A stretch of DNA of 64,000 nucleotides. It comes from Candidatus Omnitrophota bacterium (GTDB taxonomy: Bacteria; Omnitrophota; Gorgyraeia; Zapsychrales; Fredricksoniimonadaceae). Below are positions 19,430-51,450 of this stretch, piece by piece. The DNA lies in the NCBI GenBank assembly GCA_015233675.1, contig JADFXH010000004.1:8492-72491 (forward strand), read 5' to 3'. The translations under genes were made by a program, and so were the position numbers. Below the pieces are notes generated by a model. The model searched no databases. It was given only the letters and a program-made list of their open reading frames with translations, and had not been told where the DNA came from. Numbering within the stretch: the stretch's first letter is position 1; each line of letters begins with the position of its first letter.

Positions 19430-19433
19430 GATC

Positions 19434-20969: not shown

Positions 20970-21089
20970 AATATCCCCTATAAATGTAATAGCCTGAAAA
21001 TATTATAATATGATAAAAATTACGTTAATTTTACAAGAGTATAGCACATTCTGTATAAAAGAAAATATTTAATGTCGCCCGGACTTACG

Positions 21090-21773
21090 TTATTTGTGCT
21101 TTTCTAGCCTGTCGAGCATGCGAAGTAGTCCGTCAAGGATAGTCAAAGGGTGCGGCGGACAGCCTGGGATAAAAAGATCAACAGGGATAATGGTGTCAAG
21201 CCCCCTGGAGGCTTGCGGGCTATCACAAAATATCCCTCCTGAGATTGCACAACCCCCTATCGCAATGACCAGCTTAGGATCAGGAGTAGCCTCATAGGTT
21301 TTAAGCAGCGCCTCGTGCATGTTCTTTGTAATAGGGCCGGTCACAACAATACCGTCAGCATGCCTGGGAGACGCCACAAACTGGATACCAAATCGGGAAA
21401 GATCAAAAACCGGAGTATTTAAAACATTTAGATCTAATTCGCAGGCGTTGCATCCTCCGGCTGAGACCTGCCTTAGCTTAAGCGAACGGCCAAAAATTTT
21501 CAACATACGGTCATTCAAAGCGCGGGCTAATACCATATCTCGCTTATGAAATAAAATCAAATCTTCACGTTTAGACACAGCCATTCGGTAATCATTCGAA
21601 TACACAACATCGCTATCAGGATTAAAAGATATTTCCCCAAGATCAACACTGCCGCTTGGATCCGCAACCACAGGACGCCCGCGATAACGCAAAGGCAAAG
21701 CCGGTGCGGGGGTCTTGGGAAAAAGCAAGGTCCTGCAGCCTTGTTTAAAACGAGTTTTAAGAATTTTTAACAT
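21090..21773 (-). CDS. NuoB/HycG-like small subunit of a group-4-hydrogenase-related (Ehr-like) complex
   Basis: Four Cys for the proximal [4Fe-4S] cluster are retained (GGCNACELD, GGCAISGG, PGCPPHP). The ATG at 21773 is preceded by GAGGGG, so I prefer it over 21797. Confidence 0.85.
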   Translation of the reverse strand: MLKILKTRFKQGCRTLLFPKTPAPALPLRYRGRPVVADPSGSVDLGEISFNPDSDVVYSNDYRMAVSKREDLILFHKRDMVLARALNDRMLKIFGRSLKLRQVSAGGCNACELDLNVLNTPVFDLSRFGIQFVASPRHADGIVVTGPITKNMHEALLKTYEATPDPKLVIAIGGCAISGGIFCDSPQASRGLDTIIPVDLFIPGCPPHPLTILDGLLRMLDRLEKHK

Positions 21774-21829
21774 AATGTTATCCCCTCTCTGATACAAAAT
21801 AAATATTGCGGCGGGCGCTAAGAATCTAT

Positions 21830-23341: not shown

Positions 23342-23348
23342 AAATTTT

Positions 23349-24851
23349 TTATCCTCCCAAGAGTCCCGCGGCCTTATGTAAGTCATTATCAAGGAACGGC
23401 GGGATATAAAAACCAAGAATAAGAACTATGACGATTAAAATCAAGATTGGCATGATCATACTTAAACTTTCCCTTGTCTTCATTCTAAGCCCTAAGGGCG
23501 AAGGATCTTTATTCACATTAAGATCCTTCGCGCAGTTTACCCCCGAATGTTTTAATCGGGGGCTCATGATGACAGAAGAGACAGATTGTCCCTGAATCAT
23601 TTTTAAAATTATGTCTGCAATCCCTATAAAAATAAGGGCCAAAAACAAACAGTAAAAAAACGCGACTAAGTAATGATGTCCTATCAAGGCTGCGTACAGA
23701 ATCAATAATTCACTGATAAAAGTTCCGAAGGGAGGCATTGCGCTTACAGCCAAAAAAGCGGCTAAAAGAAAAATACCTGTAATCGGGAACTCACGAAGCA
23801 CCCCCCTGACATCATTGACTTTTTTGCTTTTATATTGCTTGTATAAATTGCCCGTCACCAAGAAAGCAAAACCCTTGGTAAAAGCGTTATTAATCACATG
23901 AAGGAGGCTGCCATAAATACCTATTGGCCCAAGGCCAATACCAATAGCTAAAATTCCCATATGCTCCACACTGGAGTAGGCAAACATCCTCTTATAATCT
24001 TCCTGACCCAAGATAAACACATAAGCCACGCCCAGAGAGATAATCCCTAAGAGTATGAGCATGGATGAAAAAAATGGAGTTTGGCCCGCGGCAAAACACA
24101 CCTGTCCGACTCTTAAAATACTTAAAAAAGCACAGTTTAATAAACATCCGGAAAGCAGCGCGGAAATTGGCGACGGCGCTTGTGAATGGGCGTCAGGCAG
24201 CCAAGTATGCATGGGAGCAAGCCCCATCTTAGTCCCGCATCCAATAAGCAAGAAAATTACGCTTATTTTAAGCCAAGGCACAGAAAGCTCCTTGGCATGG
24301 TTTAAAAGTTTATCAATAAAAAGGCTTTGAACATTATCGAAGCCCGCAACAGCAAGAAAATATGTCCCCAAAAGAGCCAAAGCTATCCCAATTAAACAAA
24401 TCATTAAAAATTTCCAGGTAGCTTCAATGCTTTGCCTGGTTTTTACAAAATTGATCAACGGCACACTGGATAAAGTCGTGGCTTCGATGCCGATTAATAA
24501 AAGCCCAAAATGCCGGCTGATAGTGACCAAAGTCATAAAAGAAAGGAAAAACAATAAGAATCCGATAAAAATACGATGGGAAACATCTGACTCATTTTTA
24601 AAATAACCCATCAAATAAAATGAGACCATTAAAAAAAGCACACTAACAACTGAAAGGACAAGAAGCCCTAAAGCATCCAGGCCTAAAAATCCATTTAAAA
24701 CAAAAGCCGGTTGAAACTTCCAGAAGCTAAACACGCAAGCCGTATGCAAAAATGCTGTAAAAAAGAGCATCCTGTTGCGGGATTTTTGTTCTGCAAGGAT
24801 GAAAACTGATCCCCCAACAATCAAAGGGAATAAAACCAAAAAAATCAACAT
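23349..24851 (-). CDS. Antiporter-like subunit (NuoN/HyfF-like), set 1
   Basis: 500 aa polytopic, Mrp/NuoLMN-family blocks (…[26 protein letters not shown]…, …YSSVEHMG…). Confidence 0.85.
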   Translation of the reverse strand: [500 protein letters not shown]

Positions 24852-24854
24852 AGA

Positions 24855-25499
24855 TCAATCCTTCAACGTGGTCAGCTGGGTCGTGTCCGTATTATTAAAT
24901 TCTACACTGATATGATTCACCACGATCCCCATGACCAGGGCGGCGATAAAAAGGTCCAAAAGAATGCCCATCTCAACTAACAGAGGCATTTTCTTCAACA
25001 ATAAAATAGCAAAAAGGAAAATACCATTTTCCAAAACTAAATATCCAATAACTTGGCTAATGGCTTTGTTACGGCCGACTAAAAGCAAGAATCCCATAAT
25101 AATTAAAGAAAATGAAGATGGGATCACCATGTCTGATCCTATCTTTACCGGAAAAATAAGTTTAGAAGCAAGCAAAAAGGCTCCTGCAATAGCAAAACCG
25201 CTTAATAATAAAGTCGTCCCTGTCCCTATTAGAGGGCTCACTTCACTGCGGACAGATACGTGCCTGATCGCCCAAAAAAGAAAATAAGGCATAATAAGGC
25301 CTCGAAGCACCATCGCAGCTAAACAGACAAAAATGATATAAAGCTCCATTTCTTTAGCATACAAAAAAAACGGCACACAGCCTAAAAACAAAGACTGCAG
25401 GCCGAAGATATGTATCATCGTTCCCAGACGGGTACTTGCCACAATAAAAAGGCCGAGAATTACAATTAAAATTAAGATAGCATCTAACCAAACATTCAT
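24855..25499 (-). CDS. HyfE/NuoK-like small membrane subunit, set 1
   Basis: 214 aa, about 7 hydrophobic helices, YLVLENGIFLFA block typical of HyfE-type subunits. TAATG overlap with the upstream gene. Confidence 0.8.
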   Translation of the reverse strand: MNVWLDAILILIVILGLFIVASTRLGTMIHIFGLQSLFLGCVPFFLYAKEMELYIIFVCLAAMVLRGLIMPYFLFWAIRHVSVRSEVSPLIGTGTTLLLSGFAIAGAFLLASKLIFPVKIGSDMVIPSSFSLIIMGFLLLVGRNKAISQVIGYLVLENGIFLFAILLLKKMPLLVEMGILLDLFIAALVMGIVVNHISVEFNNTDTTQLTTLKD

Positions 25500-26419
25500 T
25501 AATGCCCCCGAACTAAAATAACGATAAATCCAAAAACGGAAAATATAAACGCGGAAAATAATAAAAAAGAGACCTTGTTCAAACGTAAACGGGCCATTGT
25601 TGATTCAACGATACCGATCAAAACGGCAAAAGCAATGATTTCAAGAATAAAAAAGGCTGTGTCTATTAAAGAATCCCCAGTCCTAAACGTAATAATAATG
25701 GAAACAAGCATCGTGCCAAAAATAAAAAGTTTTACAGCCTTGCCATAAAGAATGTAGGCCAAATCGACCCCGCTATGGTCCAAGACCATGACTTCATGGA
25801 TCATGGTAAGTTCTAAATGGGTCTCAGGATCGTCAACGGGAATACGGGAATTCTCAACCAGAAGGATCAAAAAAAAGCTGACAACCACTAAAATTAAAAC
25901 CGGCCCAACCAAAAGCCAGGAAGAGGACAATCCACCCAGAAATATTTCAGATAAAGAAAGGTTTCTGGATAATAACGCCAAAATTGTCAAATTGAGGAAC
26001 ATGGTGATCTCTGACAAACACCCAAAAGTTGCTTCTCTGCTGGCCCCCATCCCTTCAAAACTTGATCCTGTATCTAAAGCGGCCAGAATAATAACGAAGC
26101 GGGCCAAAGCGAACAAATAAACAAAAAGAATCATGTCTCCCCAGAATTGGACCGGCGGCTTCATAGCCGCAATAGGCATCAGGATACCAGCGGATAAAAT
26201 GGCAGCTAAAGAAACCATGGGCGCCGCCCTAAATATCCAATTAGTAGTAACACTATAAACAGATGCCTTACGCATTAATTTATAAAGATCATAATACGGC
26301 TGGAGTAAAGGCGGGCCAATGCGGCCGGCAAAAAAAGCCTTAGTTTTTCCTATAAATCCCAAAAGCAAAGGAGGAAAAAAAATAAGAATAGTTAAATGTA
26401 ATAATAAAAGAATAGTCAT
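25499..26419 (-). CDS. NuoH/HycD-like membrane subunit, set 1
   Basis: 306 aa. Blocks KAFFAGRIGPPLLQPYYDL, AALDTGSSFEGMGASREA, HLELTMIHEVMVLDHSG as in HycD/HyfC. Confidence 0.85.
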   Translation of the reverse strand: MTILLLLHLTILIFFPPLLLGFIGKTKAFFAGRIGPPLLQPYYDLYKLMRKASVYSVTTNWIFRAAPMVSLAAILSAGILMPIAAMKPPVQFWGDMILFVYLFALARFVIILAALDTGSSFEGMGASREATFGCLSEITMFLNLTILALLSRNLSLSEIFLGGLSSSWLLVGPVLILVVVSFFLILLVENSRIPVDDPETHLELTMIHEVMVLDHSGVDLAYILYGKAVKLFIFGTMLVSIIITFRTGDSLIDTAFFILEIIAFAVLIGIVESTMARLRLNKVSFLLFSAFIFSVFGFIVILVRGH

Positions 26420-26501
26420 ATTTATATCACTTGCATTCTATTCGGCCTTTGTTTCTCTTCTCAGGCCAAATCTGCTTGGGCCTATGAGTGAAAGGATAAC
26501 C

Positions 26502-26647
26502 GTTGTTATTAGCGACACGGAAATTTTTTGCCGTCTGCTACGGTTTACAGCTTGGCTGCTATCGCGATAAATCATTCGCGGCATCCAAGCTGTAAATCCT
26601 TGCAGACTTTTGCCAAAAAATTTCTGAATGTGTCGCAAACAACAACG
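26502..26647. repeat. Palindromic intercistronic element, family A, copy 1 (inverted relative to copies 2 and 3)
   Basis: Arms gttgttattagcgacacggaaattttttgccgtctgctacgg … ccttgcagacttttgccaaaaaatttctgaatgtgtcgcaaacaacaac. Its reverse complement aligns along its length with 28958..29138. Confidence 0.75.
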
Positions 26648-26675
26648 TTTATCCTTCTATACATTTTGATAATGT

Positions 26676-26904
26676 GGCAGCAAGGATAAATTTGTTTTTG
26701 TGAGCGACTTGTCATTTTTAGTCAAAAGTTTTTTATTTTTTCGGGAATCCCGAGGCTTTACGCCGAGGGATGTCTGAACTTGTTTGAGCCTGAAGCTTCC
26801 TAAAGAAGCTGAAGGCGAGTTGTTCAGACACCGAAAAAACAAAGAACTTTTGACGTTAAAAGAATGACCCAGGAGCGAACAAAAATAAATTTATCCTTGC
26901 TGCC
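26676..26904. repeat. Long nested palindromic element, family B
   Basis: Left arm ggcagcaaggataaatttgtttttgtgagcg… Right arm reverse-complements to ggcagcaaggataaatttatttttgttcgctcc… Inner inverted repeat gtctgaacttgtttgagcctgaagcttc / gaagctgaaggcgagttgttcagac. Partial relatives near 16362..16416 and 51455..51497. Confidence 0.65.
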
Positions 26905-26931
26905 TTCGTCACGAATGATTTCAAACCCCCT

Positions 26932-28929
26932 TCAATGCAACTTCCACGCCAATAAAACGAAAAGAAAAAAAAGAATATACAGTATATAGATTTGCGTGTG
27001 CCCGCTTTGGATCCATTTAAATCTTCTGGAAAATCTTTTAATAATAAAAAAAATCGGCCGGAACAATAAATATTCTGAAACGTCTTTTACAGAAGAACTT
27101 AAACGGGCCTGAACAGGGAAATAGCCTTTTGGCCTGACAGTCTCAATCTTAAAATATAAAATTGTCCTGAAAATTTTTAAGATCGGTTTGGCAAATGAAG
27201 AGGAGGTGTACTGCATACGGGCTGTAACGTTTGCATATCCACACACCCAGGTTTCTGTCAATTTCATTGGATAGCCCAATATAAGAAATTTACGTAAAAG
27301 AGACAGCCCTACAAAAATTAAACCGCCAAACGATATAACCTTTGTAACCATCAAAAGAGGACCAATGATGGCTTCTATTAAAACATCAGGGATAAGCATG
27401 CCTGTGGCTGCCTGAGTCCCTTGAAACGCGTAATAAACCATGTTAGCCGGGAAAAGTCCAACCCAAAGGCAAATGACTGCCAGCAAAATCATAGGGCCAC
27501 GCATTATTAGATCTCCCTCCTGATAATGATGTTCCTCTGAAGATCTGTTATTACCTAAAAAAATAACACCAAAAGCTTTAGCAAAACAAAGCGCGGCTAA
27601 ACCACCAATAAGGCTTAATGCGACTATGGCCATACTTGAAAAAATAATACCAAAAATATCAAAATGAAAAACCCCTTCCAACAATGATCGAAAAACTAAC
27701 CACTCACTGATAAACCCATTAAAAAGCGGGAGCCCGCAAATAGACAAAGAGCCAATTAAAAAAAGATGTCCTGACCATGGAAGCCGCTTAAAGAGCCCCC
27801 CCATGTGTTCCATATCGCCCGTATGAGTTGAATGGATCACAGAACCGGCACTTAAAAACAAAAGTCCTTTAAATATCGCATGATTAAAAGTATGTAAAAG
27901 TGCCGCCGCATATCCCAGTAAAGCCACTGTGTCCTGATGATACGCATGCCCTATCATTCCTATGCCCAAGCCCAATGCAATAATGCCGATATTTTCAATG
28001 CTGTGATACGCTAACAATTTCTTGATCTCATGTTGGCCCAAAGCATATAACACCCCTCCAACTCCCGAGACAGCCGCCATTATTAAAAGCAGTACTCCGC
28101 ACCACAGGGGAAAATCTTTAACAATGGCCATGGCACGCATCAAGCCATAAATTCCGACTTTAATAACCACCCCTGAAAGTAAAGCAGAAATATAACTAGG
28201 CGCCGCTGGATGAGCATAGGGCAGCCAAATATGAAAAGGCATGAATCCGGCTTTAATGCCGAAACCTATAAACGCCAGCATAAAAAGTAAAGAAGCTAAA
28301 CCCAAAGGAAATGGGGTTGCCCTCATCTGATCAAAATTCATAGACCCGGCTTTGACTCCCATGATCAAAAACATTAAAACCAAACAGAAAACTCCCACAT
28401 GGGTTGCTATCAAATAAATATAACCTGCCTTGCGCACCTGTTCGCTTTCATTGTAAAAGGTGATAAGAAAATAAGAGACTACGGTCATTAGTTCCCACGC
28501 CGCAAGGAATAAAACCGCATTTTTAGCGACTAGAACAAGGATGATGACAATCATGAGCAAATGATAAAGGGCCAAATGCACGCCCACGTTCCTTTGGCCG
28601 GTATATTCACGTAAATAGCCATACGCATAAATGCCGGCGGAAAGCGATACAATGAAAAACAATAAAAGGAAAAACGCGCTTAAAAAATCTATGCCTATAT
28701 AAAATTCAAACAACGGAAGGTGTCCAGACAACCGAAAATCTAGGCCTGTCAACGGCAAGAAAAGCTCCTTTTGGCATAAAACACTTAAGACTGACCAAAG
28801 GCCAAATCCACAAGCCGCAACCAATGACCACAAAAACAGGTAAGCAGAGGTTTTCCTGGAACGACAAAATAAGAATATCAATAAACTTGATATTGTCAGG
28901 ATAGAAAGACTGATTAATAATAGATTCAT
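26932..28929 (-). CDS. HyfB/HycC/NuoL-like antiporter-like subunit, set 1
   Basis: 665 aa. Blocks WELMTVVSYFLI, FHIWLPYAHPAAPSYISALLSG, and the HyfB-type C-terminus TWVCGY…MQYTSSSFAKP. Confidence 0.85.
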   Translation of the reverse strand: MNLLLISLSILTISSLLIFLFCRSRKTSAYLFLWSLVAACGFGLWSVLSVLCQKELFLPLTGLDFRLSGHLPLFEFYIGIDFLSAFFLLLFFIVSLSAGIYAYGYLREYTGQRNVGVHLALYHLLMIVIILVLVAKNAVLFLAAWELMTVVSYFLITFYNESEQVRKAGYIYLIATHVGVFCLVLMFLIMGVKAGSMNFDQMRATPFPLGLASLLFMLAFIGFGIKAGFMPFHIWLPYAHPAAPSYISALLSGVVIKVGIYGLMRAMAIVKDFPLWCGVLLLIMAAVSGVGGVLYALGQHEIKKLLAYHSIENIGIIALGLGIGMIGHAYHQDTVALLGYAAALLHTFNHAIFKGLLFLSAGSVIHSTHTGDMEHMGGLFKRLPWSGHLFLIGSLSICGLPLFNGFISEWLVFRSLLEGVFHFDIFGIIFSSMAIVALSLIGGLAALCFAKAFGVIFLGNNRSSEEHHYQEGDLIMRGPMILLAVICLWVGLFPANMVYYAFQGTQAATGMLIPDVLIEAIIGPLLMVTKVISFGGLIFVGLSLLRKFLILGYPMKLTETWVCGYANVTARMQYTSSSFAKPILKIFRTILYFKIETVRPKGYFPVQARLSSSVKDVSEYLLFRPIFFIIKRFSRRFKWIQSGHTQIYILYILFFLFVLLAWKLH

Positions 28930-28957
28930 TGTTGAGTCTCTTTCAAGCGGCCTATCT

Positions 28958-29138
28958 CTAGCACGGATGAATAACTATTTTGTATTTGGCACGTTCAGGA
29001 ATTTTTTGCCAAAAGTCTGCAAGGTTTTACAGCGCGGATGCCGCGGATGCTTTATCGCGATAGCATCCAAGCTGCAAACCGTAGCAGACGGCAAAAATAT
29101 TCCGTGCCAAATACAAAATAGTTATTCATCCGTGCTAG
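28958..29138. repeat. Palindromic intercistronic element, family A, copy 2 (archetype)
   Basis: Perfect 36-nt terminal inverted repeats ctagcacggatgaataactattttgtatttggcacg (28958..28993) and cgtgccaaatacaaaatagttattcatccgtgctag (29103..29138). The interior is further self-complementary. Lies between the stop at 29151 and the start at 28929. Confidence 0.85.
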
Positions 29139-29150
29139 CATCATGCATAG

Positions 29151-30563
29151 CTAGACAGACACTATCAAGGCAGCCGCATTGTGGAGCAATTTCTCCAAAG
29201 GAGACGGCATCCATAATCCGATACTGATCAATAGTATACCAGCCATTGCAATGGCTACGTTCATGTATATATTCTCTTTCTTGGCAAGGAGAGGCTCTTT
29301 AGGCTGGCCATGAATTACATTAAGAATAATTTTTCCAATACCAATAAACATTAAGCCCAGACAAACAACACCAACCGCGGCCATTAAATAATGCTTGGAA
29401 ATGATGGCCGCGTTAAGGATCAAAAGCTCGCTATGAAAAGTCGCAAAAGGAAACATGCCTGTCCCCGCTAATAGGGCCGCAATTAAAAAAACACCTGTCA
29501 GCGGATATATATGAATGACTCCCCTAATTTCATCAGCGCTCGCGGAGCCGTATTTCTGAGCTAAAGAACCCGCTGTTAAAAACATAACAACCTTGGCCAA
29601 TGCATTATTGATCATATGAAACAAAGCTCCGAACAAACCGACTGTCCCCAATCCAAGCCCCAATACCAAAAGTCCCATATGTTCAATAGAAGAATAGGCA
29701 AATGCTCTTTTAATGTTCCTCTCTCCTAAAATAAACATAGCAGGGACAATCAGTGATAAAACGCCGGATAGGATCAGGATGGAAGAAAAAAAATCAGTTA
29801 GCCCTGTTTTATTACAAATTTGAGCGATTCGAAGCAAAGCTAAAAAAGAACATTGGGTCAATGCCCCTGCCATCAACACCGCCACCATTCCTGGGGCCTG
29901 TCCGTACGCTTCCGGTTTCCAACTATGTGTTGGGGCCAAGCCCATTTTACAACCGTAACCCACAATAAAAAAGATTATACTAAGCTTCAACCAATTTACC
30001 GATAGTAAAGGCGCTCCTTTTAAAAGGGCCGGCAATAAAAGAGTATGCACATCATGGGCCGCAATGGCCAAAAAGAATGTGCCCATCAAAGCTAAAGCTA
30101 TGCCTACGGAACAAATCAACAAATACCGCCAAGTAGCCTGTAAACTTTGCTGACTACGATGGAAACTTATAAGAGGCGCGCTAAAAAGCGTGGTCGCTTC
30201 TATGGCTACCCACAAAAGACCAAAATGATAACTCACCGCAACAAGTGTCATCATTGAGAGCAAAAGGAATAAGCAAGTTACAAAGACACGGTTGCGTCCA
30301 AGCTCATGTTTAAAATAACCTATCATAAAAATAGACACTGACAAAAAAAGAAAACTGATAATCGAAAGCAATATAAGCCCCAAAGAATCAAGCACTAAAA
30401 AACCATGGTATTCCGAAGGGGGGAACTCTTTCCAAAATGAAGCAACAAACAGGCTGTGGGCTAAAGAAACGGCCCCAAAAAGCTTGAGCCTAAAGTATTT
30501 ACTTACCGGTAAAAGAACTCCCAGCGCACATAAAAACGGCATTAAAATCAAAATCGTCAACAT
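29151..30563 (-). CDS. Antiporter-like subunit (NuoN/HyfF-like), set 2
   Basis: 470 aa. Collinear with 23349..24851 (e.g. GLAPTHSWKPEAYGQAPGMVAVLMAG vs [26 protein letters not shown]). Confidence 0.85.
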   Translation of the reverse strand: MLTILILMPFLCALGVLLPVSKYFRLKLFGAVSLAHSLFVASFWKEFPPSEYHGFLVLDSLGLILLSIISFLFLSVSIFMIGYFKHELGRNRVFVTCLFLLLSMMTLVAVSYHFGLLWVAIEATTLFSAPLISFHRSQQSLQATWRYLLICSVGIALALMGTFFLAIAAHDVHTLLLPALLKGAPLLSVNWLKLSIIFFIVGYGCKMGLAPTHSWKPEAYGQAPGMVAVLMAGALTQCSFLALLRIAQICNKTGLTDFFSSILILSGVLSLIVPAMFILGERNIKRAFAYSSIEHMGLLVLGLGLGTVGLFGALFHMINNALAKVVMFLTAGSLAQKYGSASADEIRGVIHIYPLTGVFLIAALLAGTGMFPFATFHSELLILNAAIISKHYLMAAVGVVCLGLMFIGIGKIILNVIHGQPKEPLLAKKENIYMNVAIAMAGILLISIGLWMPSPLEKLLHNAAALIVSV

Positions 30564-31216
30564 TAAAACGTTTCCCCCATATTCGATTGCACAACGGACG
30601 CTGTGTTCTTCTCAAATTCTTCATTGATATGGTTGACCACGATGGCCATGATAAACACAGCAACAAAAATATCCAAAAGGATGCCCATTTCTATAAGGAC
30701 TGGCATGACATCAAACAATGATATAGCGAAAAGAAAAATGCCGTTTTCAAGGATCAAATAACCCAAAACCTGGGTCACGGCACGAGTACGTGTTACCATG
30801 ATCATAAATCCTAAAAGGACCGTTGAAAGAGAACATGGCAGGACCAAGTCAGAGGCGGGCTGACCCGGAATTTTCAAAGATAAAGAAACCCAAAATGCCC
30901 CGGCTATGACTATGGCCCCAAAAATAATGGATGCCCCAAATCCGATGATAGGCTTGATTTCTGAACGCATGGACACATGCCGGATAGCCCAAAATAAAAT
31001 ATATGGCACTAACGCGGCCTTTAAGATCATGGTGACAAGACCAATCATGATATCCCTGCTTGAAATACTAGAGGCATGCAGAAAAAACGGCAATAGCCCT
31101 AAGACAAAAGACTGAAGGGCAAAAACGCCAATCATCGCGGCTACGCGGTGATTGGACAAAATAATAAGCGATAAGAATACAATAACAATACAGATCACAT
31201 CAACCCAACTTGTCAT
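30563..31216 (-). CDS. HyfE/NuoK-like small membrane subunit, set 2
   Basis: Paralog of 24855..25499 (YLILENGIFLFA). I prefer the ATG at 31216 (MTSWVDVICIV…) because the ORF-track start at 31273 overlaps the upstream gene. Confidence 0.8.
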   Translation of the reverse strand: MTSWVDVICIVIVFLSLIILSNHRVAAMIGVFALQSFVLGLLPFFLHASSISSRDIMIGLVTMILKAALVPYILFWAIRHVSMRSEIKPIIGFGASIIFGAIVIAGAFWVSLSLKIPGQPASDLVLPCSLSTVLLGFMIMVTRTRAVTQVLGYLILENGIFLFAISLFDVMPVLIEMGILLDIFVAVFIMAIVVNHINEEFEKNTASVVQSNMGETF

Positions 31217-31220
31217 ACCT

Positions 31221-32144
31221 CTACATCCTCCACATCTTGACGACAAATCCAAAAAAAGCCAAAGCAAAAGCAATCAACAATAAATTATTAACCCTGTTAA
31301 GCCTGAGGCGCGCCATAGTCGATTCTATAATGCCCACCGTGACGGACAAAACCAGCATCCCGCCTAAAAAAATCAGCATATCCCAAGCCGTATTCCCCGA
31401 TTGGACTGGAACAATAATAGGGACCATGATGCTGGCAAAAACAAAAAATTTTATAGCCGCTGCGTAAAGCATATAGCCCAAATCTACCCCGCTGTGGTCT
31501 AAAATCATCACTTCATGGATCATGGTCAATTCCAAATGAGTATCAGGATCATCAATGGGAATGCGGGCGTTTTCTGTCAGAATAACAATAAAAAAACTGC
31601 CTACCACCAAAAGCAAAACTGGCCCCATCAGTGTCCAAGACAAAGGGAAATTAGCCCCTATCATCGCAGATAAAGAAATGCTGTGGCTAACAAACGAAAG
31701 CGTAATGAAATTCATAAATAGCGCCAGTTCAGAAAGGCAGGAAAAAAAAGCCTCACGGCTGGCTCCCATTCCTTCAAAACTAGATCCGGTATCAAGAGCC
31801 GCAGAGATCATAAAAAACCGGGCAAACCCCAAGATATAGGCTGCCAGGAGTATATCACCGGAAAATTTTACAGGAGCTTTAAATGTCCCAAGGGGAACAA
31901 GCGCCGATAAAACCAAAACAGCGGCAAGATTAATGATAGGTGCGGCACAAAAAATCCATGTGGTTGTCCTGCTATAGACAGAATTCTTTTGAAACAGCCG
32001 CTGCAAGTCAAAATACGGCTGAAAAAAAGACGGCCCTTTCTTGCCTGCAAAAAATGCCTTTACTTTTGAAATAATGCCTAAAAATAAAGGTGACAGGGTT
32101 AGGACAATTAGCCAGTGGGATAAAATTAAGAATATAATGTTCAT
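31221..32144 (-). CDS. NuoH/HycD-like membrane subunit, set 2
   Basis: Paralog of 25499..26419 (AALDTGSSFEGMGASREA and HLELTMIHEVMILDHSG are both conserved). The ATG at 32144 forms an ATGA overlap with the upstream stop. The ORF-track start at 32156 is a TTG. Confidence 0.85.
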   Translation of the reverse strand: MNIIFLILSHWLIVLTLSPLFLGIISKVKAFFAGKKGPSFFQPYFDLQRLFQKNSVYSRTTTWIFCAAPIINLAAVLVLSALVPLGTFKAPVKFSGDILLAAYILGFARFFMISAALDTGSSFEGMGASREAFFSCLSELALFMNFITLSFVSHSISLSAMIGANFPLSWTLMGPVLLLVVGSFFIVILTENARIPIDDPDTHLELTMIHEVMILDHSGVDLGYMLYAAAIKFFVFASIMVPIIVPVQSGNTAWDMLIFLGGMLVLSVTVGIIESTMARLRLNRVNNLLLIAFALAFFGFVVKMWRM

Positions 32145-33961
32145 TTCAATTTCCAAACCAGCAAAAATATCAAATACAAGAAAATGTACATCAAGTATAT
32201 TTGGGTATAACGAATACGGTTCATGTCCAGCTTCTTTGAAAAACTTGTCAATCGAGCAAACAAAGGCTTAAATAAGAATTCTTCGGATGCATCATGGACC
32301 GATGACGACATGGATGTTTTAGCTGGAAATTTCCCTTTAACATCCCCCCCTTCACGTCGAAAAAATAGAATTCCTTTTACAAAATCAACAATAAGAAGGG
32401 CAAAGGAAGATGAGGTGTATTGAATCTTAGGCGTCATCTGAAAAAAACCGCAGCCCCAGGTTTCACGAACAGGCTGGGCGTGGCCTTGCAAAAGTTTGCG
32501 ACGTATACCTACAAGGGCCAAAACCAAGGCAAAAAAAAGAAAAACACCGCTAATGACAAGAGATAAGGGGTAAAAAATAGTTCCCATAGGAAGACTTGCA
32601 AGGTCCGTATGTGATAAATAGGCTCCGCCTTGAAAAGCTGCATTGGCCATTATTTGAGGAAAAAGGCCGATCCACAAGCATAACCCTCCCAGGACCAGCA
32701 TGGGAATAATCATTAATAAAGAAATTTTGCCCGTGGATGGCGGTTCTTGCAGATGGCGAGGTTCGCCTAAAAACACGGTGCCATATACCTTGGTAAAACA
32801 AGCCAAGGCTAACGCTCCCATGAGAGCCAATGAAATAATTCCCACAGCACAAGTAAAAGCCCCCTGCAAAGGCAAATGAAAAAGCCCTTGAAAAAGGCCA
32901 AAATAAATAATGAACTCACTGATAAATCCATTAAATAACGGCAGTCCACAAATAGCCAAAGCCCCAACAAGAAATAAAATGCTGACCAACGGCATAGTAC
33001 GGGCGAGTCCTCCCATCAGGTCCATATCACTTGTATGCGTTCTTTGAATAACACATCCCGCACCCATAAACAAAAGCCCTTTAAATATAGCATGGTTTAA
33101 AACGTGCAAAAGTGCGCCGCCAAATCCAAGTACGGATAAAAATGGCATGTGATGGCTCTGCCCCAATAGCCCAACGCCTAAACCCAGCGAAATAATCCCG
33201 ATATTCTCAATGCTATGATAAGCCAACAGCTTTTTAAGTTCATGCTGACCTAAAGCGTACAAAACTCCCATCAGCCCACACACGACACCAATGATTAAAA
33301 TCAAATATCCGCACCAATCCGGTAATACCCCGATTATCCATAACACCCGACAGATGCCGTAAATGCCCATTTTGATAGCCACCCCCGATAAAATAGCAGA
33401 AATATGTGTCGGAGCTGCGGGATGCGCGTGAGGCAGCCAAATATGGACCGGAACAAACCCTGCTTTGATCCCAAAACCAATAATGGCCAAAAGAAGTATA
33501 CTACCCGCAAAAGCAACAGGAAAACTCGAATGACTGATAATCTCAAAGTTCATGGACCCGGCATTATGCGCCATTAAAAAGAACATTAAAATAAGAAGAA
33601 AAGTCCCGCAATGGGACATGATCAAATAAAGGAAGCCAGCACGACGCACAGAGGATTTTTCATCATTAAAAACAATTAAAAAATAGGTAGAAATGGACAT
33701 CATTTCCCAAGCACCTAAGAAAAGAATCACATTATTGGCCAAGACGATCAAAACAAGAGCGGTTGACAAAAGGAAATAAAAAAAGATATGGAGCCCCATT
33801 GACTTGGTGGTCCTATACTGACGCATGTACCCTACAGCGTAAACGCCGGCACATAAAACCAGGATGGTGACTGCGGTAAGAAAGATAAGACTCAAAGAAT
33901 CAAGTTTAAGAGCAAACTCCCCAAAAGGGACATGCCATGGCCATTGAAATGATTCTAGCAT
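32141..33961 (-). CDS. HyfB/HycC/NuoL-like antiporter-like subunit, set 2
   Basis: Paralog of 26932..28929 (WEMMSISTYFLI, VHIWLPHAHPAAPTHISAILSG, TWGCGF…IQYTSSSFALL). I prefer the ATG at 33961 (MLESFQWPWH…), which avoids overlap with the ptsN-like gene. Confidence 0.85.
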   Translation of the reverse strand: MLESFQWPWHVPFGEFALKLDSLSLIFLTAVTILVLCAGVYAVGYMRQYRTTKSMGLHIFFYFLLSTALVLIVLANNVILFLGAWEMMSISTYFLIVFNDEKSSVRRAGFLYLIMSHCGTFLLILMFFLMAHNAGSMNFEIISHSSFPVAFAGSILLLAIIGFGIKAGFVPVHIWLPHAHPAAPTHISAILSGVAIKMGIYGICRVLWIIGVLPDWCGYLILIIGVVCGLMGVLYALGQHELKKLLAYHSIENIGIISLGLGVGLLGQSHHMPFLSVLGFGGALLHVLNHAIFKGLLFMGAGCVIQRTHTSDMDLMGGLARTMPLVSILFLVGALAICGLPLFNGFISEFIIYFGLFQGLFHLPLQGAFTCAVGIISLALMGALALACFTKVYGTVFLGEPRHLQEPPSTGKISLLMIIPMLVLGGLCLWIGLFPQIMANAAFQGGAYLSHTDLASLPMGTIFYPLSLVISGVFLFFALVLALVGIRRKLLQGHAQPVRETWGCGFFQMTPKIQYTSSSFALLIVDFVKGILFFRREGGDVKGKFPAKTSMSSSVHDASEEFLFKPLFARLTSFSKKLDMNRIRYTQIYLMYIFLYLIFLLVWKLK

Positions 33962-33980
33962 ATTAAAAAATCTGCCTTCT

Positions 33981-34664
33981 TTATAAAGCTCTTGCCGTTC
34001 TTGATTCCGCGACTTGAAATGCCGCCAGAATCTCTTCACTTTGCCCTCGGCGCTTTAAAGCCGATATAACTTCTTCGTCCTGCAGGCAAAATGCCAAGCG
34101 TGATAATAAAGACAAGTGCCATTTAAACGATGACGACAAAATGACAAATAAAGTATGCACCCCTTCACCATCGAGTGCAGAAAAATCAACAACCTTTTCA
34201 AGAAAGAAAATTCCAACGATAGGCTCCATTCCAGCCAGCACCACCGGATGTTTAACATGCGGAATAGCAATACCATTGCCAATACCGGTTGTTCCTGCCT
34301 GCTCACGGGACAATAGCATCTCTTTTAAAGAGGCTCTCTGAATATGACCGGGCAAGGGTAATAGATCTAGGACCTTCCCAAGAACTTCTTCCCGTAAAGA
34401 CCCATTGATCCCAAAATATACGCCTCCACGCATAAGTGCCGGGGTGATGATATCCCTGCCTTGACGGGTCTTTTCACAAAGCTTCAATGCACCCGTGGTA
34501 AGACGTATCCGGTTTTTTAAGGCCCACTCTAAAACTTCAACCGAATTAAAATAATACTGGTCATTAGCCTTAATGGCTGGCATACCCTTCTTATTAAGCC
34601 ATTGATAAAGCGTCTCCTCCTCAATTTCAAATGCCTTTTCTATATCACGAAAAGTCAGCTGCAT
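33981..34664 (-). CDS. HTH domain fused to a PTS EIIA(Ntr)/PtsN-type domain
   Basis: N-terminus LTFRDIEKAFEIEEETLYQWLNKKGMPAIK (excisionase/MerR-like HTH). EIIA-2 active-site block GIGNGIAIPHVKH. GAGAGGGA RBS. Confidence 0.8.
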   Translation of the reverse strand: MQLTFRDIEKAFEIEEETLYQWLNKKGMPAIKANDQYYFNSVEVLEWALKNRIRLTTGALKLCEKTRQGRDIITPALMRGGVYFGINGSLREEVLGKVLDLLPLPGHIQRASLKEMLLSREQAGTTGIGNGIAIPHVKHPVVLAGMEPIVGIFFLEKVVDFSALDGEGVHTLFVILSSSFKWHLSLLSRLAFCLQDEEVISALKRRGQSEEILAAFQVAESRTARAL

Positions 34665-34677
34665 GGCGTCCCTCTCA

Positions 34678-36342
34678 TTATGGCTTGCTTTCTTTCAATA
34701 ATTCCTGTGCACGCAGAATTGTTTCTTTCATGCTTGAAAAAACATTTTCTTCGCCTATTAATTCATAAAGATTTGATTTAACCATTTCATTTAACGGCTG
34801 CACATGAAGTCCTGTAATAATCAGGGCGATTTGATCCTTTTTGCATTTATTATAAAAGCTTCTCAATGCGTACATCCCTGTGGAATCAATGACAGGGACA
34901 TCCCTAAATCGCAAGATCCTCACCTTCGGTTTTTCATTGATCTGACGACCAACTTCATCAAACCGGTTGGCTGCTCCAAAAAATAAAGGGCCATTGACTT
35001 CATAAATTTCTACGTGAGCGGGCAGCACAAATCCTGACAATTGACGGTCTTCGCCTTTTTCATCTTCCTCATATTCTTTGGCGATGACCTTAATATGAGT
35101 AGCATCCGCCATGCGTTTCATGAAAACAAACGAGGCCAACACCACCCCCCATTCAATGGCCGCATTCAAATCAACAAAAATGGTCAATAAAAAAGTGGAT
35201 AAAAGAACCATTTTTCCGCCTCGAGACCATTTCAGAAGTTCACAGAAAGACCTCCACTCACTCATATGGTAGGCAACCACTACTAGTATACCCGCTAAAC
35301 AGGCTAATGGAACATATTTGATCCAAATTCCCAAGAACATCATGATCAATAGGACTGTGATGGCATGCATTATTCCTGCAATCGGTGTGCGCCCGCCATT
35401 TTTGATATTAGTTACGGTCCGGGCGATCGCACCTGTAGCCGGCATGCCGCCAAAAAGAGCTGAACCGATATTCGCTATGCCTTGGCCCACAAGTTCTGTA
35501 TTGGAGCGATGTTTCGCGCCAATCATACCATCAGAAACAATAGCTGATAAAAGAGATTCCACGGCGCCTAAAATGGCTATAGTGATCGCAGGCTGGAACA
35601 ACTCACTGATGATTGAAAAACTGATATGAGGGAATACCGGTACCGGTAAGACATGCGGCAATTCTCCAAAACGGCTCCCAATCGTTTCTACTGGCAAATG
35701 AAAATAAGCCACCAGAGACGATACTGAAATCAAAGCTATCAATGCGCCCGGAACACGCTTGGAAATTCTCGGAAACAGGATAATAATCAAGACGGTTAAG
35801 AGTCCTACAATTAACGCGTCATAGTTAACTGTCCCCATATGTTCCATAAAAATCCGCCACTTTTCCACAAATTCCGCCGGCACTTTCTCAATCTTTAGAC
35901 CTAGGAAGTCTTTAACTTGGGAAGAAAAAATGATGACAGCAATACCGCTGGTAAATCCCACTATAACAGAATGCGGTATAAACTTGACCGCGGTCCCAAC
36001 TTTGGCAACTCCCATAATTATAAGAAGGATACCTGCCATTAGGGTGGCAATAATAAGACCATCTACCCCGTGCTTTTGCACAATGCCGTAAACAATGACA
36101 ACAAAAGCCCCGGTGGGGCCGCCAATCTGCACCCGGCTGCCTCCCAGCATTGAAACGAGAAAGCCGGCGATGATAGCGGTAAAAAGACCTTTATCCGGAG
36201 ACACCCCAGACGCAATCGCAAAAGCAATTGCAAGAGGAATAGCCACAATTCCTACAATAAAACCGGAAACACAATCGGTCACGAATTGCTGCTTCGAATA
36301 ATCCTTAAGACAAGTTAACAATTTTGGCGAAAACATAAGCAT
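34678..36342 (-). CDS. SulP-family anion transporter with C-terminal STAS domain
   Basis: 554 aa. SulP blocks GGSRVQIGGPTGAF and NTELVGQGIANIGSALFGGMPATGAIARTV. STAS block ILRFRDVPVIDSTGMYAL. Confidence 0.9.
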   Translation of the reverse strand: MLMFSPKLLTCLKDYSKQQFVTDCVSGFIVGIVAIPLAIAFAIASGVSPDKGLFTAIIAGFLVSMLGGSRVQIGGPTGAFVVIVYGIVQKHGVDGLIIATLMAGILLIIMGVAKVGTAVKFIPHSVIVGFTSGIAVIIFSSQVKDFLGLKIEKVPAEFVEKWRIFMEHMGTVNYDALIVGLLTVLIIILFPRISKRVPGALIALISVSSLVAYFHLPVETIGSRFGELPHVLPVPVFPHISFSIISELFQPAITIAILGAVESLLSAIVSDGMIGAKHRSNTELVGQGIANIGSALFGGMPATGAIARTVTNIKNGGRTPIAGIMHAITVLLIMMFLGIWIKYVPLACLAGILVVVAYHMSEWRSFCELLKWSRGGKMVLLSTFLLTIFVDLNAAIEWGVVLASFVFMKRMADATHIKVIAKEYEEDEKGEDRQLSGFVLPAHVEIYEVNGPLFFGAANRFDEVGRQINEKPKVRILRFRDVPVIDSTGMYALRSFYNKCKKDQIALIITGLHVQPLNEMVKSNLYELIGEENVFSSMKETILRAQELLKESKP

Positions 36343-51259: not shown

Positions 51260-51450
51260 GCGCGATGAGACAGGAGGAAGAAATTTATTTTTATTCGGTA
51301 CGTTCAGGAATTTTTTGCCAAAAGTCTGCAAGGAGTTATGGCTATAATGTTCCAAATGAAGAGAAACTTTAGAACATTATAGCCATAAACCGAAGCAGAC
51401 GGCAAAAATATTCCGTGCCGAATACATAATACCTGTTCATCCATCACGCA
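51260..51450. repeat. Palindromic intercistronic element, family A, copy 3 (boundaries approximate)
   Basis: ggtacgttcaggaattttttgccaaaagtctgcaagg and cgaagcagacggcaaaaatattccgtgccgaatac are nearly identical to copy 2. The inner hairpin differs (gttatggctataatgttc … gaacattatagccataac). Confidence 0.8.

What the first reader, a model, noticed from the sequence alone, without database searches (positions are those of the whole stretch)
28958..29138. 181-nt palindromic element with perfect 36-nt terminal inverted repeats between two cistrons
The element fills almost the entire gap between the stop of the set-2 HyfF-like gene (29151) and the start of the set-1 HyfB-like gene (28929). Its outer 36 nt on each side are perfectly complementary, and the interior is also self-complementary in nested fashion, so the transcript could fold into one very long hairpin. 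Homologous copies occur at 26502..26647 and about 51260..51450, so it belongs to a dispersed family. It carries no ORF of its own; the ORF-track peptides such as FGTFRNFLPKVCK are read-through artefacts. It resembles REP/BIME/ERIC-type or MITE-type elements, but I do not recognise the sequence.
Basis: seen in the sequence. Interest (0 to 1): 0.6.

Follow-up and report, generated by a model that had tools for sequence, protein, structure and literature searches.

The report
Nested palindromic repeat family of Omnitrophota
The 181-base hairpin is a recently inserted copy of an apparently undescribed family of small, gene-less palindromic repeats lying between genes in at least 49 species-representative genomes, all deposited as Candidatus Omnitrophota or as uncultured Planctomycetales/Planctomycetia MAGs; it is a new family of a known kind of bacterial repeat, not a new kind of system.

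Summary
Window 28958-29138 has perfect 36-nt terminal inverted repeats and folds into one long hairpin (z = -13.6). It fills most of the 221-nt gap between two Hyf-like cistrons.

A covariance model finds exactly three copies in the window. Their 22-nt core occurs in more than 113 loci from 49 species-representative genomes, labelled Candidatus Omnitrophota or, by some submitters, uncultured Planctomycetales/Planctomycetia. No match was found in Rfam, phages, plasmids, viral contigs or the searchable literature.

The family is modular and has polarity: variable outer arms, a conserved shell with fixed internal loops, and a 50-60-nt apical core in about 12 classes. The shell plus core is 125-134 nt. 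Shell stems change by compensatory substitutions. Arms and cores reassort.

The copies are insertions. The junction holding element A reads TAA-NN-ATG in five of six close relatives (ATGA overlap in the sixth). Four other filled/empty site comparisons were found. Copies are intergenic, show no systematic target duplication, and have no adjacent transposase.

Best reading: a non-autonomous REPIN/ERIC/Correia-like repeat, probably recognised through its folded shell and transcribed as a long hairpin within operon mRNAs. The mobilising enzyme and any RNA-level effect remain inferred. This is a new member of a known kind, of moderate interest.

The parts
28958..29138 (-). Element A, the reported 181-nt nested palindrome. 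Family polarity (motif strand) is on the - strand, the same strand as the operon.
   Evidence: Its site is empty in six relatives.
29103..29138 (-). 5' outer arm of A (type I arm: GCTAGCAC-GGATGAATAACTATTTTGTATTTGGCACG).
   Evidence: Perfect 36-nt inverted repeat. The same arm type occurs in L004, L008, L036, L075, L085, L088, L094 and in window copy C.
29076..29103 (-). 5' half of the conserved shell, read on the - strand: GGAATA-TTTTTGCC-GTCTGC-TACGG-TTT. It contains the 22-nt family core.
   Evidence: The core was invariant by ascertainment; covarying variants appear.
29030..29075 (-). Apical variable core, class 1 (GCAGCTTGGATGCTATCGCGATAAAGCATCCGCGGCATCCGCGCTGT).
   Evidence: Core clustering. 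The same class occurs in window copy B, L022, L085 and L094.
28998..29029 (-). 3' half of the conserved shell, read on the - strand: AAAACC-TTG-CAGAC-TTTT-GGCAAAAAA-TTCC. The GT that completes the family's GTAAA string is counted here as the last two bases of the core (29030-29031).
28958..28993 (-). 3' outer arm of A.
26491..26656 (+). Copy B. The inner unit 26511-26635 scores 112.5 bits. Polarity is on the + strand, antisense to the operon. It has core class 1 but different (type II-like) outer arms.
   Evidence: Its site is empty in L114, L115 and L117.
51270..51450 (-). Copy C. The inner unit 51296-51422 scores 115.8 bits. It has type I arms (the 3' arm is decayed) and core class 2. It sits between a HlyD-family gene and an ABC ATPase gene of an efflux operon.
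29151..30563 (-). Upstream cistron, HyfF-like (Proton_antipo_M), set 2.
26932..28929 (-). Downstream cistron, HyfB-like (Proton_antipo_M plus N-terminal domain), set 1.
28930..28957 (-). 28-nt spacer between the element and the HyfB ATG (AGATAGGCCGCTTGAAAGAGACTCAACA). It is part of the ~219 nt that relatives lack.
29139..29150 (-). 12-nt spacer between the HyfF stop codon and the element, also absent from relatives.

Best explanation
Element A is a young copy of a non-autonomous, dispersed, nested-palindromic repeat family restricted, as far as sampled, to genomes labelled Candidatus Omnitrophota or, for some MAGs, uncultured Planctomycetales/Planctomycetia.

Shown: the family is multi-copy, intergenic and insertion-polymorphic. 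It consists of variable outer arms around a 125-134-nt inner unit. That unit has two conserved inverted half-sites (the shell) flanking a variable spacer (the core).

Shown: the shell has polarity and fixed internal-loop sequences. Its stems are maintained by compensatory changes. Arms and cores reassort between copies.

Inferred: copies are made by a trans-acting enzyme that recognises the folded shell in single-stranded nucleic acid. This would be a REPIN/RAYT- or IS200/IS605-like logic rather than recognition of terminal repeats by a DDE transposase. Modules would reassort by recombination or gene conversion through the conserved shell.

Inferred: because A lies inside an operon with its motif strand on the sense strand, it is transcribed as a ~-110 kcal/mol hairpin with a 36-bp perfect duplex. 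That hairpin separates two formerly translationally coupled cistrons. By analogy with Correia and ERIC elements, it is expected to be an RNase III/E target or a stability determinant. This would be a side effect of the insertion, not its reason for existing.
For: Multi-copy and widespread:
- The window holds 3 copies in 64 kb.
- 89 of 99 testable copies fold as one long hairpin enclosing the core. Inspection of the remainder shows most also fold that way, but truncated copies such as L035, L059 and L067 do not.
- Copies are intergenic. Flanks are ++ in 37 cases, -- in 12, divergent in 11 and convergent in 4; 8 of 89 copies lie under a longer called ORF that I take to be spurious.

Insertion polymorphism:
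- A's junction reads TAA-NN-ATG in five of six relatives at 79-87% aa identity and ATGA in the sixth. None of 35 orthologous loci has a model hit.
- B's site is empty in L114, L115 and L117.
- L021, L013 and L080 are filled where the window, the window again, and L071 are empty.

Selected fold with polarity:
- The model scores 106-116 bits on one strand against 21-30 on the other.
- Copies not found through the exact motif show double substitutions: GTCTGC/GCAGAC to GTGCAC/GTGCAC, GTGCGC/GCGCAC or GTCTGT/ACAGAC, and TTTTTGCC/GGCAAAAA to TTTTTACG/CGTAAAAA, TTTTTTCG/CGAAAAAA or TTTTGGCC/GGCCAAAA. The loop CT-N-CGG stays fixed.
- Inner-unit length is 125-134 nt across ~12 core classes.

Constraint or homogenisation:
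- Orthologous copies in L025 and L062 differ at 3 of ~158 nt. Flanking coding DNA is 89-91% identical and the adjacent spacer is unalignable.

Reassortment:
- A has arms I with core 1, C has arms I with core 2, and B has arms II with core 1.
- L022 and L099 carry different cores at the same orthologous site.
- L113 has a core-less shell.

Not a DDE-type MITE:
- There is no systematic TSD: 4.0 against 3.93 nt in controls.
- Termini are the least conserved part.

REPIN-like layout and habits:
- REPINs are conserved inverted halves plus a variable spacer, extragenic, absent from plasmids and vertically persistent (bioRxiv 10.1101/2021.07.10.451892).
- This family has no match in plasmids, phages or viral contigs.

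RNA-level precedent:
- RNase III cuts Correia-containing transcripts, and ERIC exposes an RNase E site (PMC10969869).
Against: - No mobilising enzyme was found. There was no Y1/HUH hit in the 1.06 Mb of DNA held, using probes recalled from memory. No protein family recurs next to copies. Nothing transposase-like lies between paired copies.
- The one IS seen nearby (rve DDE type, in L088 and L094) has unrelated termini.
- One insertion (L080) is flanked by an 11-nt direct repeat, TTAATGGATAA, which is unexpected for a single-strand HUH mechanism.
- REPINs are ~100 bp without long extra outer arms, and each REP carries its own ~14-bp palindrome. Here only the 5' half has one (CCGT-CTGCT-NCGG).
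- G.U pairs are equally frequent on both strands, 276 against 257. This gives no sign of RNA-specific selection, and no proof of DNA-level selection either.
- The orientation bias (37:12) could reflect transcription or replication. GC skew is fully confounded with coding strand.
- No expression data were available.
Confidence: 0.62

Rival explanations
1. It is a classical MITE: a deletion derivative of a DDE-transposase insertion sequence. It would be mobilised in trans through its terminal inverted repeats and create target-site duplications.
For: - It has perfect 36-nt terminal inverted repeats, small size, no ORF, multiple copies and intergenic sites.
- One filled/empty pair (L080 against L071) shows an 11-nt direct duplication of the target.
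- DDE (rve) insertion sequences exist in a related genome.
Against: - The termini are the most variable part of the family, while an internal shell is conserved across 49 genomes.
- Copies in one genome carry different arms.
- There is no systematic TSD.
- The only IS seen has unrelated termini.
- The family has strand polarity. Symmetric recognition of terminal repeats does not predict this.
Confidence: 0.15
2. It is a domesticated cis-acting structured RNA (or a small RNA gene) whose conserved shell is a binding platform for a conserved Omnitrophota protein. It would control processing, stability or translational coupling of operon mRNAs. Dispersal would be historical and the present function would lie in the RNA.
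For: - It shows the signature of a selected fold: covarying stems, invariant internal loops, constant length and polarity.
- The motif strand is on the sense strand 3:1 between co-directional genes.
- Orthologous copies are more conserved than the coding flanks.
- Insertions sit exactly at stop/start junctions, so the hairpin base brings the stop and start codons together.
Against: - About a quarter to a third of copies, including window copy B, are antisense to the surrounding genes.
- G.U and A.C oppositions are equally common.
- Sites are presence/absence polymorphic between close relatives, so no locus requires the element.
- No promoter or terminator is associated with it.
- It matches no Rfam family.
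Confidence: 0.15
3. It is an intrinsic (possibly bidirectional) transcription terminator or attenuator between the two Hyf-like gene sets.
For: It is a very stable GC-containing hairpin placed directly after a stop codon.
Against: - On both strands the T-run precedes the GC stem and the A-run follows it (TTTTTGCC...GGCAAAAAA), the reverse of a terminator.
- No terminator-like site lies on the gene strand at any of the three copies.
- Convergent gene pairs are the rarest context, 4 of 64.
- Relatives run the same operon with no spacer at all.
Confidence: 0.03
4. The conserved GCCGTCTGC string (9 of its 10 bases match the Neisseria uptake sequence GCCGTCTGAA, recalled from memory) marks a DNA uptake sequence. 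On this view the elements are inverted uptake-sequence pairs.
For: Only the resemblance of the string itself.
Against: - The 9-mer occurs 3 times in the 64-kb window, all inside the three elements.
- In 0.8 Mb of loci, 115 of 124 occurrences lie inside the full 22-mer core, and four of the other nine are in variant copies of the family.
- Uptake sequences are short, very abundant and also lie within genes.
Confidence: 0.01
5. It is an assembly artefact: a chimeric fold-back created during assembly or amplification.
For: Perfect long palindromes can arise as artefacts.
Against: Homologous elements with the same architecture occur in more than 100 independent contigs from 49 assemblies. These include a complete genome, a single-cell genome and long-read MAGs. 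Orthologous copies are conserved between genomes.
Confidence: 0.01

Closest known systems
REPINs (REP doublets forming hairpins) with their RAYT transposases
   Same: - Two conserved half-sites in inverted orientation flank a poorly conserved spacer, and the whole forms a hairpin.
- Copies are almost exclusively extragenic.
- Many copies occur per genome.
- None was found on plasmids or phages.
- Orthologous copies persist through speciation.
- No TSD was detected.
- The inner unit of 125-134 nt is close to the REPIN size of ~100 bp.
(definition from bioRxiv 10.1101/2021.07.10.451892.)
   Different: - No RAYT or Y1 gene was found.
- Only the 5' half-site contains its own short palindrome.
- Long additional outer arms (up to 36 bp, perfect) and further outer layers surround the unit.
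- Spacers fall into discrete classes that reassort.
[quoted passage not shown]
ERIC (enterobacterial repetitive intergenic consensus, 127 bp)
   Same: - It is an imperfect palindrome.
- It lies in transcribed intergenic regions of operons.
- It is conserved across a broad taxon rather than a single species.
- Sites are presence/absence polymorphic.
- Effects on mRNA depend on orientation (PMC10969869).
   Different: - The sequence is unrelated.
- ERIC is confined to Enterobacteriaceae and Vibrionaceae.
- ERIC lacks the arms/shell/core reassortment seen here.
Correia elements (CREE/NEMIS) of Neisseria
   Same: - They are ~100-200-bp palindromic repeats with long terminal inverted repeats.
- They insert next to or between genes.
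- They are co-transcribed, and the hairpin is cut by RNase III (PMC10969869).
- They come in modular subtypes.
   Different: - Correia elements are genus-specific.
- Their conservation lies in the terminal repeats.
- They carry TA duplications, IHF sites and promoters (partly from my own knowledge).
- None of these was seen here.
BIMEs of E. coli and BOX elements of pneumococcus (mosaic repeats)
   Same: They are mosaic or modular combinations of palindromic units in intergenic DNA. A second palindromic family is repeatedly found adjacent to this one.
   Different: Those units are arranged side by side, whereas here the modules are nested concentrically in one hairpin. The sequences and host taxa differ (my own knowledge of BIME and BOX).
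IS200/IS605-derived palindrome-associated elements (PATEs)
   Same: - Recognition of imperfect hairpins with fixed unpaired bases would explain strand polarity, the lack of TSDs and the orientation bias.
- The core is bracketed by TTAC/GTAA, the IS608 target tetranucleotide (my own knowledge; a lead, not a test).
   Different: - No TnpA was found.
- PATEs carry two different subterminal hairpins rather than one element-wide palindrome.

Membership tests
Classical prokaryotic MITE (DDE-derived) | Terminal inverted repeats | tested here: met
   A has a 36-nt perfect inverted repeat. Other copies have imperfect arms of 20-45 nt.
Classical prokaryotic MITE (DDE-derived) | Small size, no coding capacity, multiple copies | tested here: met
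   Elements are 120-290 nt and contain no conserved ORF. There are 3 copies in the window and more than 113 loci in total.
Classical prokaryotic MITE (DDE-derived) | Direct target-site duplication flanking each copy | tested here: not met
   The mean longest flanking direct repeat is 4.0 nt, against 3.93 +/- 0.10 in shuffled pairings of 85 copies. A single case (L080) has an 11-nt duplication. A very short TSD (2-3 bp) cannot be excluded.
Classical prokaryotic MITE (DDE-derived) | A parent IS with the same terminal repeats | tested here: inconclusive
   None was found in the 1.06 Mb held. The only IS seen (L088/L094, rve type) has unrelated termini. Whole genomes could not be searched.
REPIN/RAYT system | [quoted passage not shown] | tested here: met
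   The shell halves are conserved. The core falls into ~12 unrelated classes.
REPIN/RAYT system | Each REP is itself a short (~14 bp) palindrome | tested here: inconclusive
   The 5' half contains CCGT-CTGCT-NCGG. The 3' half has the equivalent interrupted: CCTYGCAGAC-WTTT-GG (read).
REPIN/RAYT system | Almost exclusively extragenic | tested here: met
   Eight of 89 copies lie under a longer called ORF that I take to be spurious.
REPIN/RAYT system | A cognate single-copy RAYT (HUH/Y1) gene flanked by the repeats | not testable with these tools
   No Y1 hit in the held DNA, using probes recalled from memory, and none between paired copies.
REPIN/RAYT system | Vertical persistence; absence from plasmids and other horizontally moving vectors | tested here: met
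   Orthologous copies are retained in L025/L062 and L022/L099. There is no match in plasmids, phages or viral contigs.
Any Rfam RNA family | Score at or above the family's gathering threshold | tested here: not met
   The only hit in the window is a cobalamin riboswitch elsewhere. In permissive mode the element gives only microRNA-precursor noise, 27 bits against a gathering score of 90.
Intrinsic terminator | GC-rich stem followed by a 3' U-tract on the transcribed strand | tested here: not met
   The T-run is 5' and the A-run 3' of the stem on both strands. The scans find nothing on the gene strand.
DNA uptake sequence (DUS/USS) | A short motif, highly over-represented genome-wide, including inside genes | tested here: not met
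   GCCGTCTGC occurs 3 times in the window, only inside the elements. In the loci, 115 of 124 occurrences lie inside the full core.
ERIC / Correia | Sequence homology to the family consensus; host taxon | not tested
The host taxon differs (Omnitrophota). The resemblance is in mode of action only.

The most novel reading that the evidence does not exclude
The shell is not merely a transposition signal. It would be a conserved structured module, in RNA or single-stranded DNA, read by a dedicated and still unknown Omnitrophota protein.

On this reading the family is either (i) the first REPIN/RAYT-type persistent 'replicator' system reported for Omnitrophota, with cassette-like exchange of apical cores, or (ii) a domesticated operon-internal RNA device. 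The device's hairpin would hold the upstream stop codon and the downstream start codon together. This would preserve or tune translational coupling and processing in the very compact genomes of these ultra-small bacteria.
Probability: 0.2. Interest if true: 0.75.

Novelty: new member of a known kind. Interest (0 to 1): 0.48.

Why it matters
Omnitrophota are uncultivated, mostly ultra-small bacteria, and nothing appears to have been reported about their repeated DNA. The two Omnitrophota genome papers I checked do not mention such repeats.

A repeat family whose shell is retained across at least 49 species-representative genomes offers several things:
- A ready-made marker for the phylum, for example for binning, strain typing and detecting mislabelled MAGs. 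Several hits are deposited as 'Planctomycetales'.
- A natural system for studying long-term persistence of non-autonomous elements beyond the proteobacterial examples I know of.
- A caution for gene callers. ORFs such as 28967-29227 and 50270-51355 run into the elements.

For this locus, the element splits two formerly coupled cistrons of a duplicated Hyf-like membrane hydrogenase cluster with a very stable hairpin. That is likely to alter the relative expression of the two sets.

Tried and rejected
- **Rfam.** Gathering and permissive searches gave no family, only microRNA-precursor noise.
- **tRNA/tmRNA.** None in the window.
- **Viral contigs, phage and plasmid collections.** No match.
- **Literature.** Searches for Omnitrophota with palindromic, MITE, REP or repeat terms found nothing relevant.
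- **Uptake-sequence idea.** Rejected on the distribution of the 9-mer.
- **Terminator idea.** Rejected.
- **Replication versus transcription bias by GC skew.** Uninformative. Skew follows the coding strand in 94 of 95 strongly biased loci.
- **Strand-specific folding energy.** The complement of the motif strand is more stable in 70 of 85 copies. The effect is only ~3 kcal/mol, comes from the asymmetric shell loops rather than the cores, and is negligible for the window copies. G.U counts are equal on both strands. This does not decide between RNA and DNA.
- **Partner enzyme.** All-against-all clustering of 1046 neighbouring ORFs gave only ordinary paralogue families. I did not run those against Pfam. 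ORFs between paired copies are PdxA/SurA-like, pilin-like or unknown. tblastn with recalled IS200, IS608 and RAYT sequences gave nothing.
- **The 1.3-kb repeat next to the elements in L088 and L094.** It is an rve-type IS with unrelated termini.
- **Exact look-up of the HyfF-like protein.** Not on record, so the window's own genome could not be retrieved.
- **Alignment-wide covariation on A1.** Uninformative for the shell, because the left half was fixed by the search pattern. The informative covariation came from model hits lacking the exact motif.
Full report
**1. The observation**

The sequence at 28958-29138 is as described. The outer 36 nt on each side are perfectly complementary, with 109 nt between them. 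The 36-mer occurs nowhere else in the window, and none is expected by chance. On the gene strand the region folds into one uninterrupted long hairpin of -115.9 kcal/mol. Shuffled sequences give -54.2 +/- 4.5, so z = -13.6.

The element sits in the 221-nt gap between a 470-aa and a 665-aa Proton_antipo_M protein. These are the HyfF-like and HyfB-like genes of two tandem Hyf-like sets, all on the - strand. With filters off, a covariance model finds exactly three copies in the 64 kb: 51296-51422(-), 26511-26635(+) and 28987-29111(-), at 106-116 bits.

**2. A large family**

All three copies share the 22-mer TTTTTGCCGTCTGCTNCGGTTT. The loci come from 49 different assemblies. All are labelled Candidatus Omnitrophota or, for some third-party MAGs, 'uncultured Planctomycetales/Planctomycetia'. 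One of the latter (L062) is ~91% identical in flanking DNA to the complete genome of Ca. Velamenicoccus archaeovorus.

Many assemblies contribute several contigs. The samples include groundwater, deep mines, lakes, a marine biofilm and a single-cell genome. Nothing comparable was found elsewhere:
- Rfam.
- 2.9 million viral contigs.
- Phage and plasmid collections.
- Two recent Omnitrophota genome papers and keyword searches.

**3. Anatomy**

Read on the motif strand, the copies show a concentric design:
- Variable outer arm.
- (C)ACGGAAT or GCTGAAAT.
- TTTTTGCC, GTCTGC, T-N-CGG, TTTAC.
- Variable core.
- GTAAA, x-CC-T-Y-G, CAGAC.
- WTTT, or a 10-25-nt insert.
- G(G/C)CAAAAAA, TTCC or TTTC.
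- A 3-5-nt 3'-side bulge (TGAAT, TAATT and similar).
- The complementary outer arm.

In 89 of 99 testable copies, the minimum-energy fold pairs the core with a partner enclosing it in one hairpin. The median traced length is ~175 nt. Most of the remainder also form one long hairpin on inspection. Truncated or interrupted copies such as L035, L059 and L067 do not.

The inner unit (shell plus core) is strikingly constant at 125-134 nt in 48 non-identical copies. The cores, however, fall into about a dozen unrelated classes.

The element is not a symmetric palindrome. The model scores 106-116 bits on one strand and only 21-30 on the other. The asymmetric bulges and the internal loop U-N-C / U-Y are conserved. 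N and Y covary: T with C 43 times, A with T 31, G with T 18, and T with T twice.

Copies that lack the exact probe motif show that the shell helices are maintained by double substitutions, while the loop string CT-N-CGG is retained:
- GTGCAC/GTGCAC, GTGCGC/GCGCAC, GTCTGT/ACAGAC and GTTGGC/GTCAAC replace GTCTGC/GCAGAC.
- TTTTTACG/CGTAAAAA, TTTTTTCG/CGAAAAAA and TTTTGGCC/GGCCAAAA replace TTTTTGCC/GGCAAAAA.

This is the pattern of a fold that is selected, or continually restored, in a single strand.

**4. Modules reassort**

Within the window, A and C share the same outer-arm type but have unrelated cores. A and B share the core class but have unrelated arms. BLAST similarity between A and B accordingly ends at the 117-nt inner unit.

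L022 and L099 are syntenic at ~70-75% identity and carry an element at the same site. Its arms and shell are conserved (77-90%), but the core belongs to a different class (51% identity, meaning unrelated).

L113 contains a shell with no core at all, GTCTGC|GCAGAC. L067 has a copy truncated directly after TTTAC.

The simplest explanation is recombination or gene conversion between copies through the 25-35-nt conserved shell on either side. This is an inference. Site-specific insertion of cores into the shell centre is not excluded.

**5. The copies are insertions**

A metagenome scan with the HyfF-like protein gave 35 orthologous loci, and none has a model hit. In the six closest relatives (79-87% aa identity), the HyfF-like stop and the HyfB-like start read TAA-NN-ATG in five and overlap as ATGA in the sixth. 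The window has 221 nt there.

Element A, together with 12 and 28 nt of extra spacer, is therefore a lineage-specific insertion into a tight, presumably translationally coupled junction. The SD-like GGAG found at the end of HyfF in relatives is gone in the window.

Other site comparisons:
- Copy B's junction (HyfB/HyfC of set 1) is empty in L114, L115 and L117. In L120 it holds an unrelated 147-nt insert.
- Three filled/empty pairs run the other way. L021 has an element between ppx and ppk, where the window has TAA-GATC-ATG. L013 has a ~290-nt multi-layer palindrome where the window has TAG-T-ATG. L080 has a ~350-nt insert where L071 has the overlap TAATG.

Across 85 copies there is no systematic target-site duplication. 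L080 alone is flanked by an 11-nt direct repeat that restores both the stop and the start codon.

Copies lie between co-directional genes (49), divergent genes (11) or convergent genes (4), and almost never inside genes. The neighbours are ordinary housekeeping genes.

**6. Constraint**

Orthologous copies in Ca. Velamenicoccus archaeovorus (L025) and a relative (L062) differ at 3 of ~158 hairpin positions. The coding flanks are 89-91% identical, and the neighbouring spacer cannot be aligned.

Element A is 88.8% identical over 170 nt to copies at unrelated loci (L085, L094) of a genome whose syntenic genes are ~84% identical to the window. Copy C is 92.9% identical to L088 of the same genome.

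The family is therefore held together either by purifying selection or by ongoing homogenisation and turnover.

**7. What it does: committed view and its limits**

Shown: it is a dispersed, non-coding, insertion-polymorphic palindromic repeat with a conserved, polar, structurally maintained inner module.

Inferred, mobilisation: the conserved part is internal, the termini vary, there is no TSD, and there is polarity plus a 3:1 orientation bias (37:12; 69:36 by coding fraction). From this I infer mobilisation by an enzyme that reads the folded shell in a single strand, as RAYTs do for REPINs or TnpA does for IS200/IS605 ends. REPINs are defined as two conserved inverted REPs around a variable spacer, ~100 bp, extragenic, vertically inherited and absent from plasmids. 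The inner unit matches that layout.

This step is weak because no such enzyme was found. Whole genomes could not be screened.

Inferred, RNA level: A's motif strand is the sense strand of the operon, so the mRNA should contain a hairpin with a 36-bp perfect duplex. By analogy with Correia (RNase III) and ERIC (RNase E) elements, it would be a processing or stability determinant. It also uncouples the two cistrons.

It is not a terminator. The T-run is on the wrong side of the stem, and nothing terminator-like is found on the gene strand. It is not an uptake-signal carrier.

**8. Unresolved**

- I could not separate a transcription-linked from a replication-linked orientation bias, because GC skew follows the coding strand.
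- G.U and A.C oppositions are equally frequent, so there is no positive evidence for RNA-specific selection.
- The non-Watson-Crick N/Y covariation is unexplained.
- So is the pyrimidine-rich, direct-repeat-like flank (CTCGCT...CTCGCY) in the largest core class.
- In L021, the inverted copy of the native gene end forms the base of the hairpin. This is also unexplained.

**9. Verdict**

The element belongs to an apparently undescribed repeat family restricted, as far as sampled, to Omnitrophota. Its closest analogues are REPINs, ERIC and Correia elements. Membership in any of these is not established: the defining RAYT was not found, and there is no TSD or parent IS as expected of a classical MITE.

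I rate it a new member of a known kind, of moderate interest. The more novel possibility, a dedicated shell-reading machinery or a domesticated operon-internal RNA device, remains open at about 20%.

Noticed in passing
window 26676-26904; also 16366-16414 and 51478-51495; L075 5215-5427: A second, unrelated 229-nt palindromic element (terminal repeat GGCAGCAAGGATAAATTTGTTTTTGT) lies directly beside copy B. It has an 80% homologue next to a family copy in L075. Fragments lie at 16366-16414 and next to copy C. Related strings follow family copies in L015, L049 and L112. Together these suggest a recurrent mosaic of two repeat families.
   Followed up: partly
window 55723-55848: A third palindrome, 126 nt long with perfect 25-nt terminal inverted repeats, lies between a TonB-dependent receptor gene and an ABC ATPase gene. 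Its only match is a weak one (70%) to L088 1506-1632.
   Followed up: partly
window 21078-38286 versus L021 5233-5297: A 17.2-kb block is absent from the otherwise syntenic (~84% identical) genome of L021. The block holds NuoB/NuoCD-like genes, both Hyf-like sets with elements A and B, PTS-EIIA/HTH, a SulP transporter and malic enzyme. It is either an indel or an island.
   Followed up: no
window 61551-61710 (-): A cobalamin riboswitch (RF00174, 62 bits) lies downstream of the - strand ORF 63393-63827 and upstream of the - strand ORF 60855-61460.
   Followed up: no
L120 6389-6536: At the same HyfB/HyfC junction that holds copy B in the window, L120 has a different, non-palindromic 147-nt insert (GTCATTACGAGGAGCG...AAGCGACGAAGCAATC). 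L114, L115 and L117 are empty there. This tight operon junction has been hit independently by different small elements.
   Followed up: partly
L094 6161-7482 and L088 2595-3917: A 1.3-kb insertion sequence, 99.5% identical between two loci of one MAG, encodes a 394-aa rve-type DDE transposase. It has ~50-bp terminal repeats containing TGTAAAC motifs. It sits next to family copies, but its ends are unrelated to them.
   Followed up: partly
L031, L074, L080, L084, L093, L105, L113 (3' shell half): A ~20-nt GC-rich mini-palindrome (CCCTGCCTACCGGCAGGCAGG) is inserted at the same position, just 5' of T-Y-GCAGAC, in several copies from different genomes. It forms a further nested layer.
   Followed up: no
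window 29151-29170 versus L114-L123 (end of the HyfF-like gene): Relatives end HyfF with GGAGCTGTTTAA, an SD-like GGAG a few bases before the HyfB ATG. The window has ATAGTGTCTGTCTAG instead. The coupling signal has decayed where the element separates the cistrons.
   Followed up: no
L021 6927-7116 versus window 19427-19436: The 3' end of the hairpin (TCAATCTT) is the inverted complement of the native last codons plus stop of the upstream ppx gene (AAGATTGA; AGGATTAA in the window). It looks as if the palindrome had been extended into flanking host sequence.
   Followed up: no
L046 2545-5451: Tandem type IV pilin-like paralogues (146-147 aa) are interleaved with family copies in the same orientation, with a third copy downstream.
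   Followed up: no
window 50270-51355 (-) and 28967-29227 (+): These mechanical ORFs extend into elements C and A. The TTG start of the ABC ATPase ORF at 51355 lies inside copy C and is probably over-extended. This is an annotation hazard caused by the repeats.
   Followed up: no
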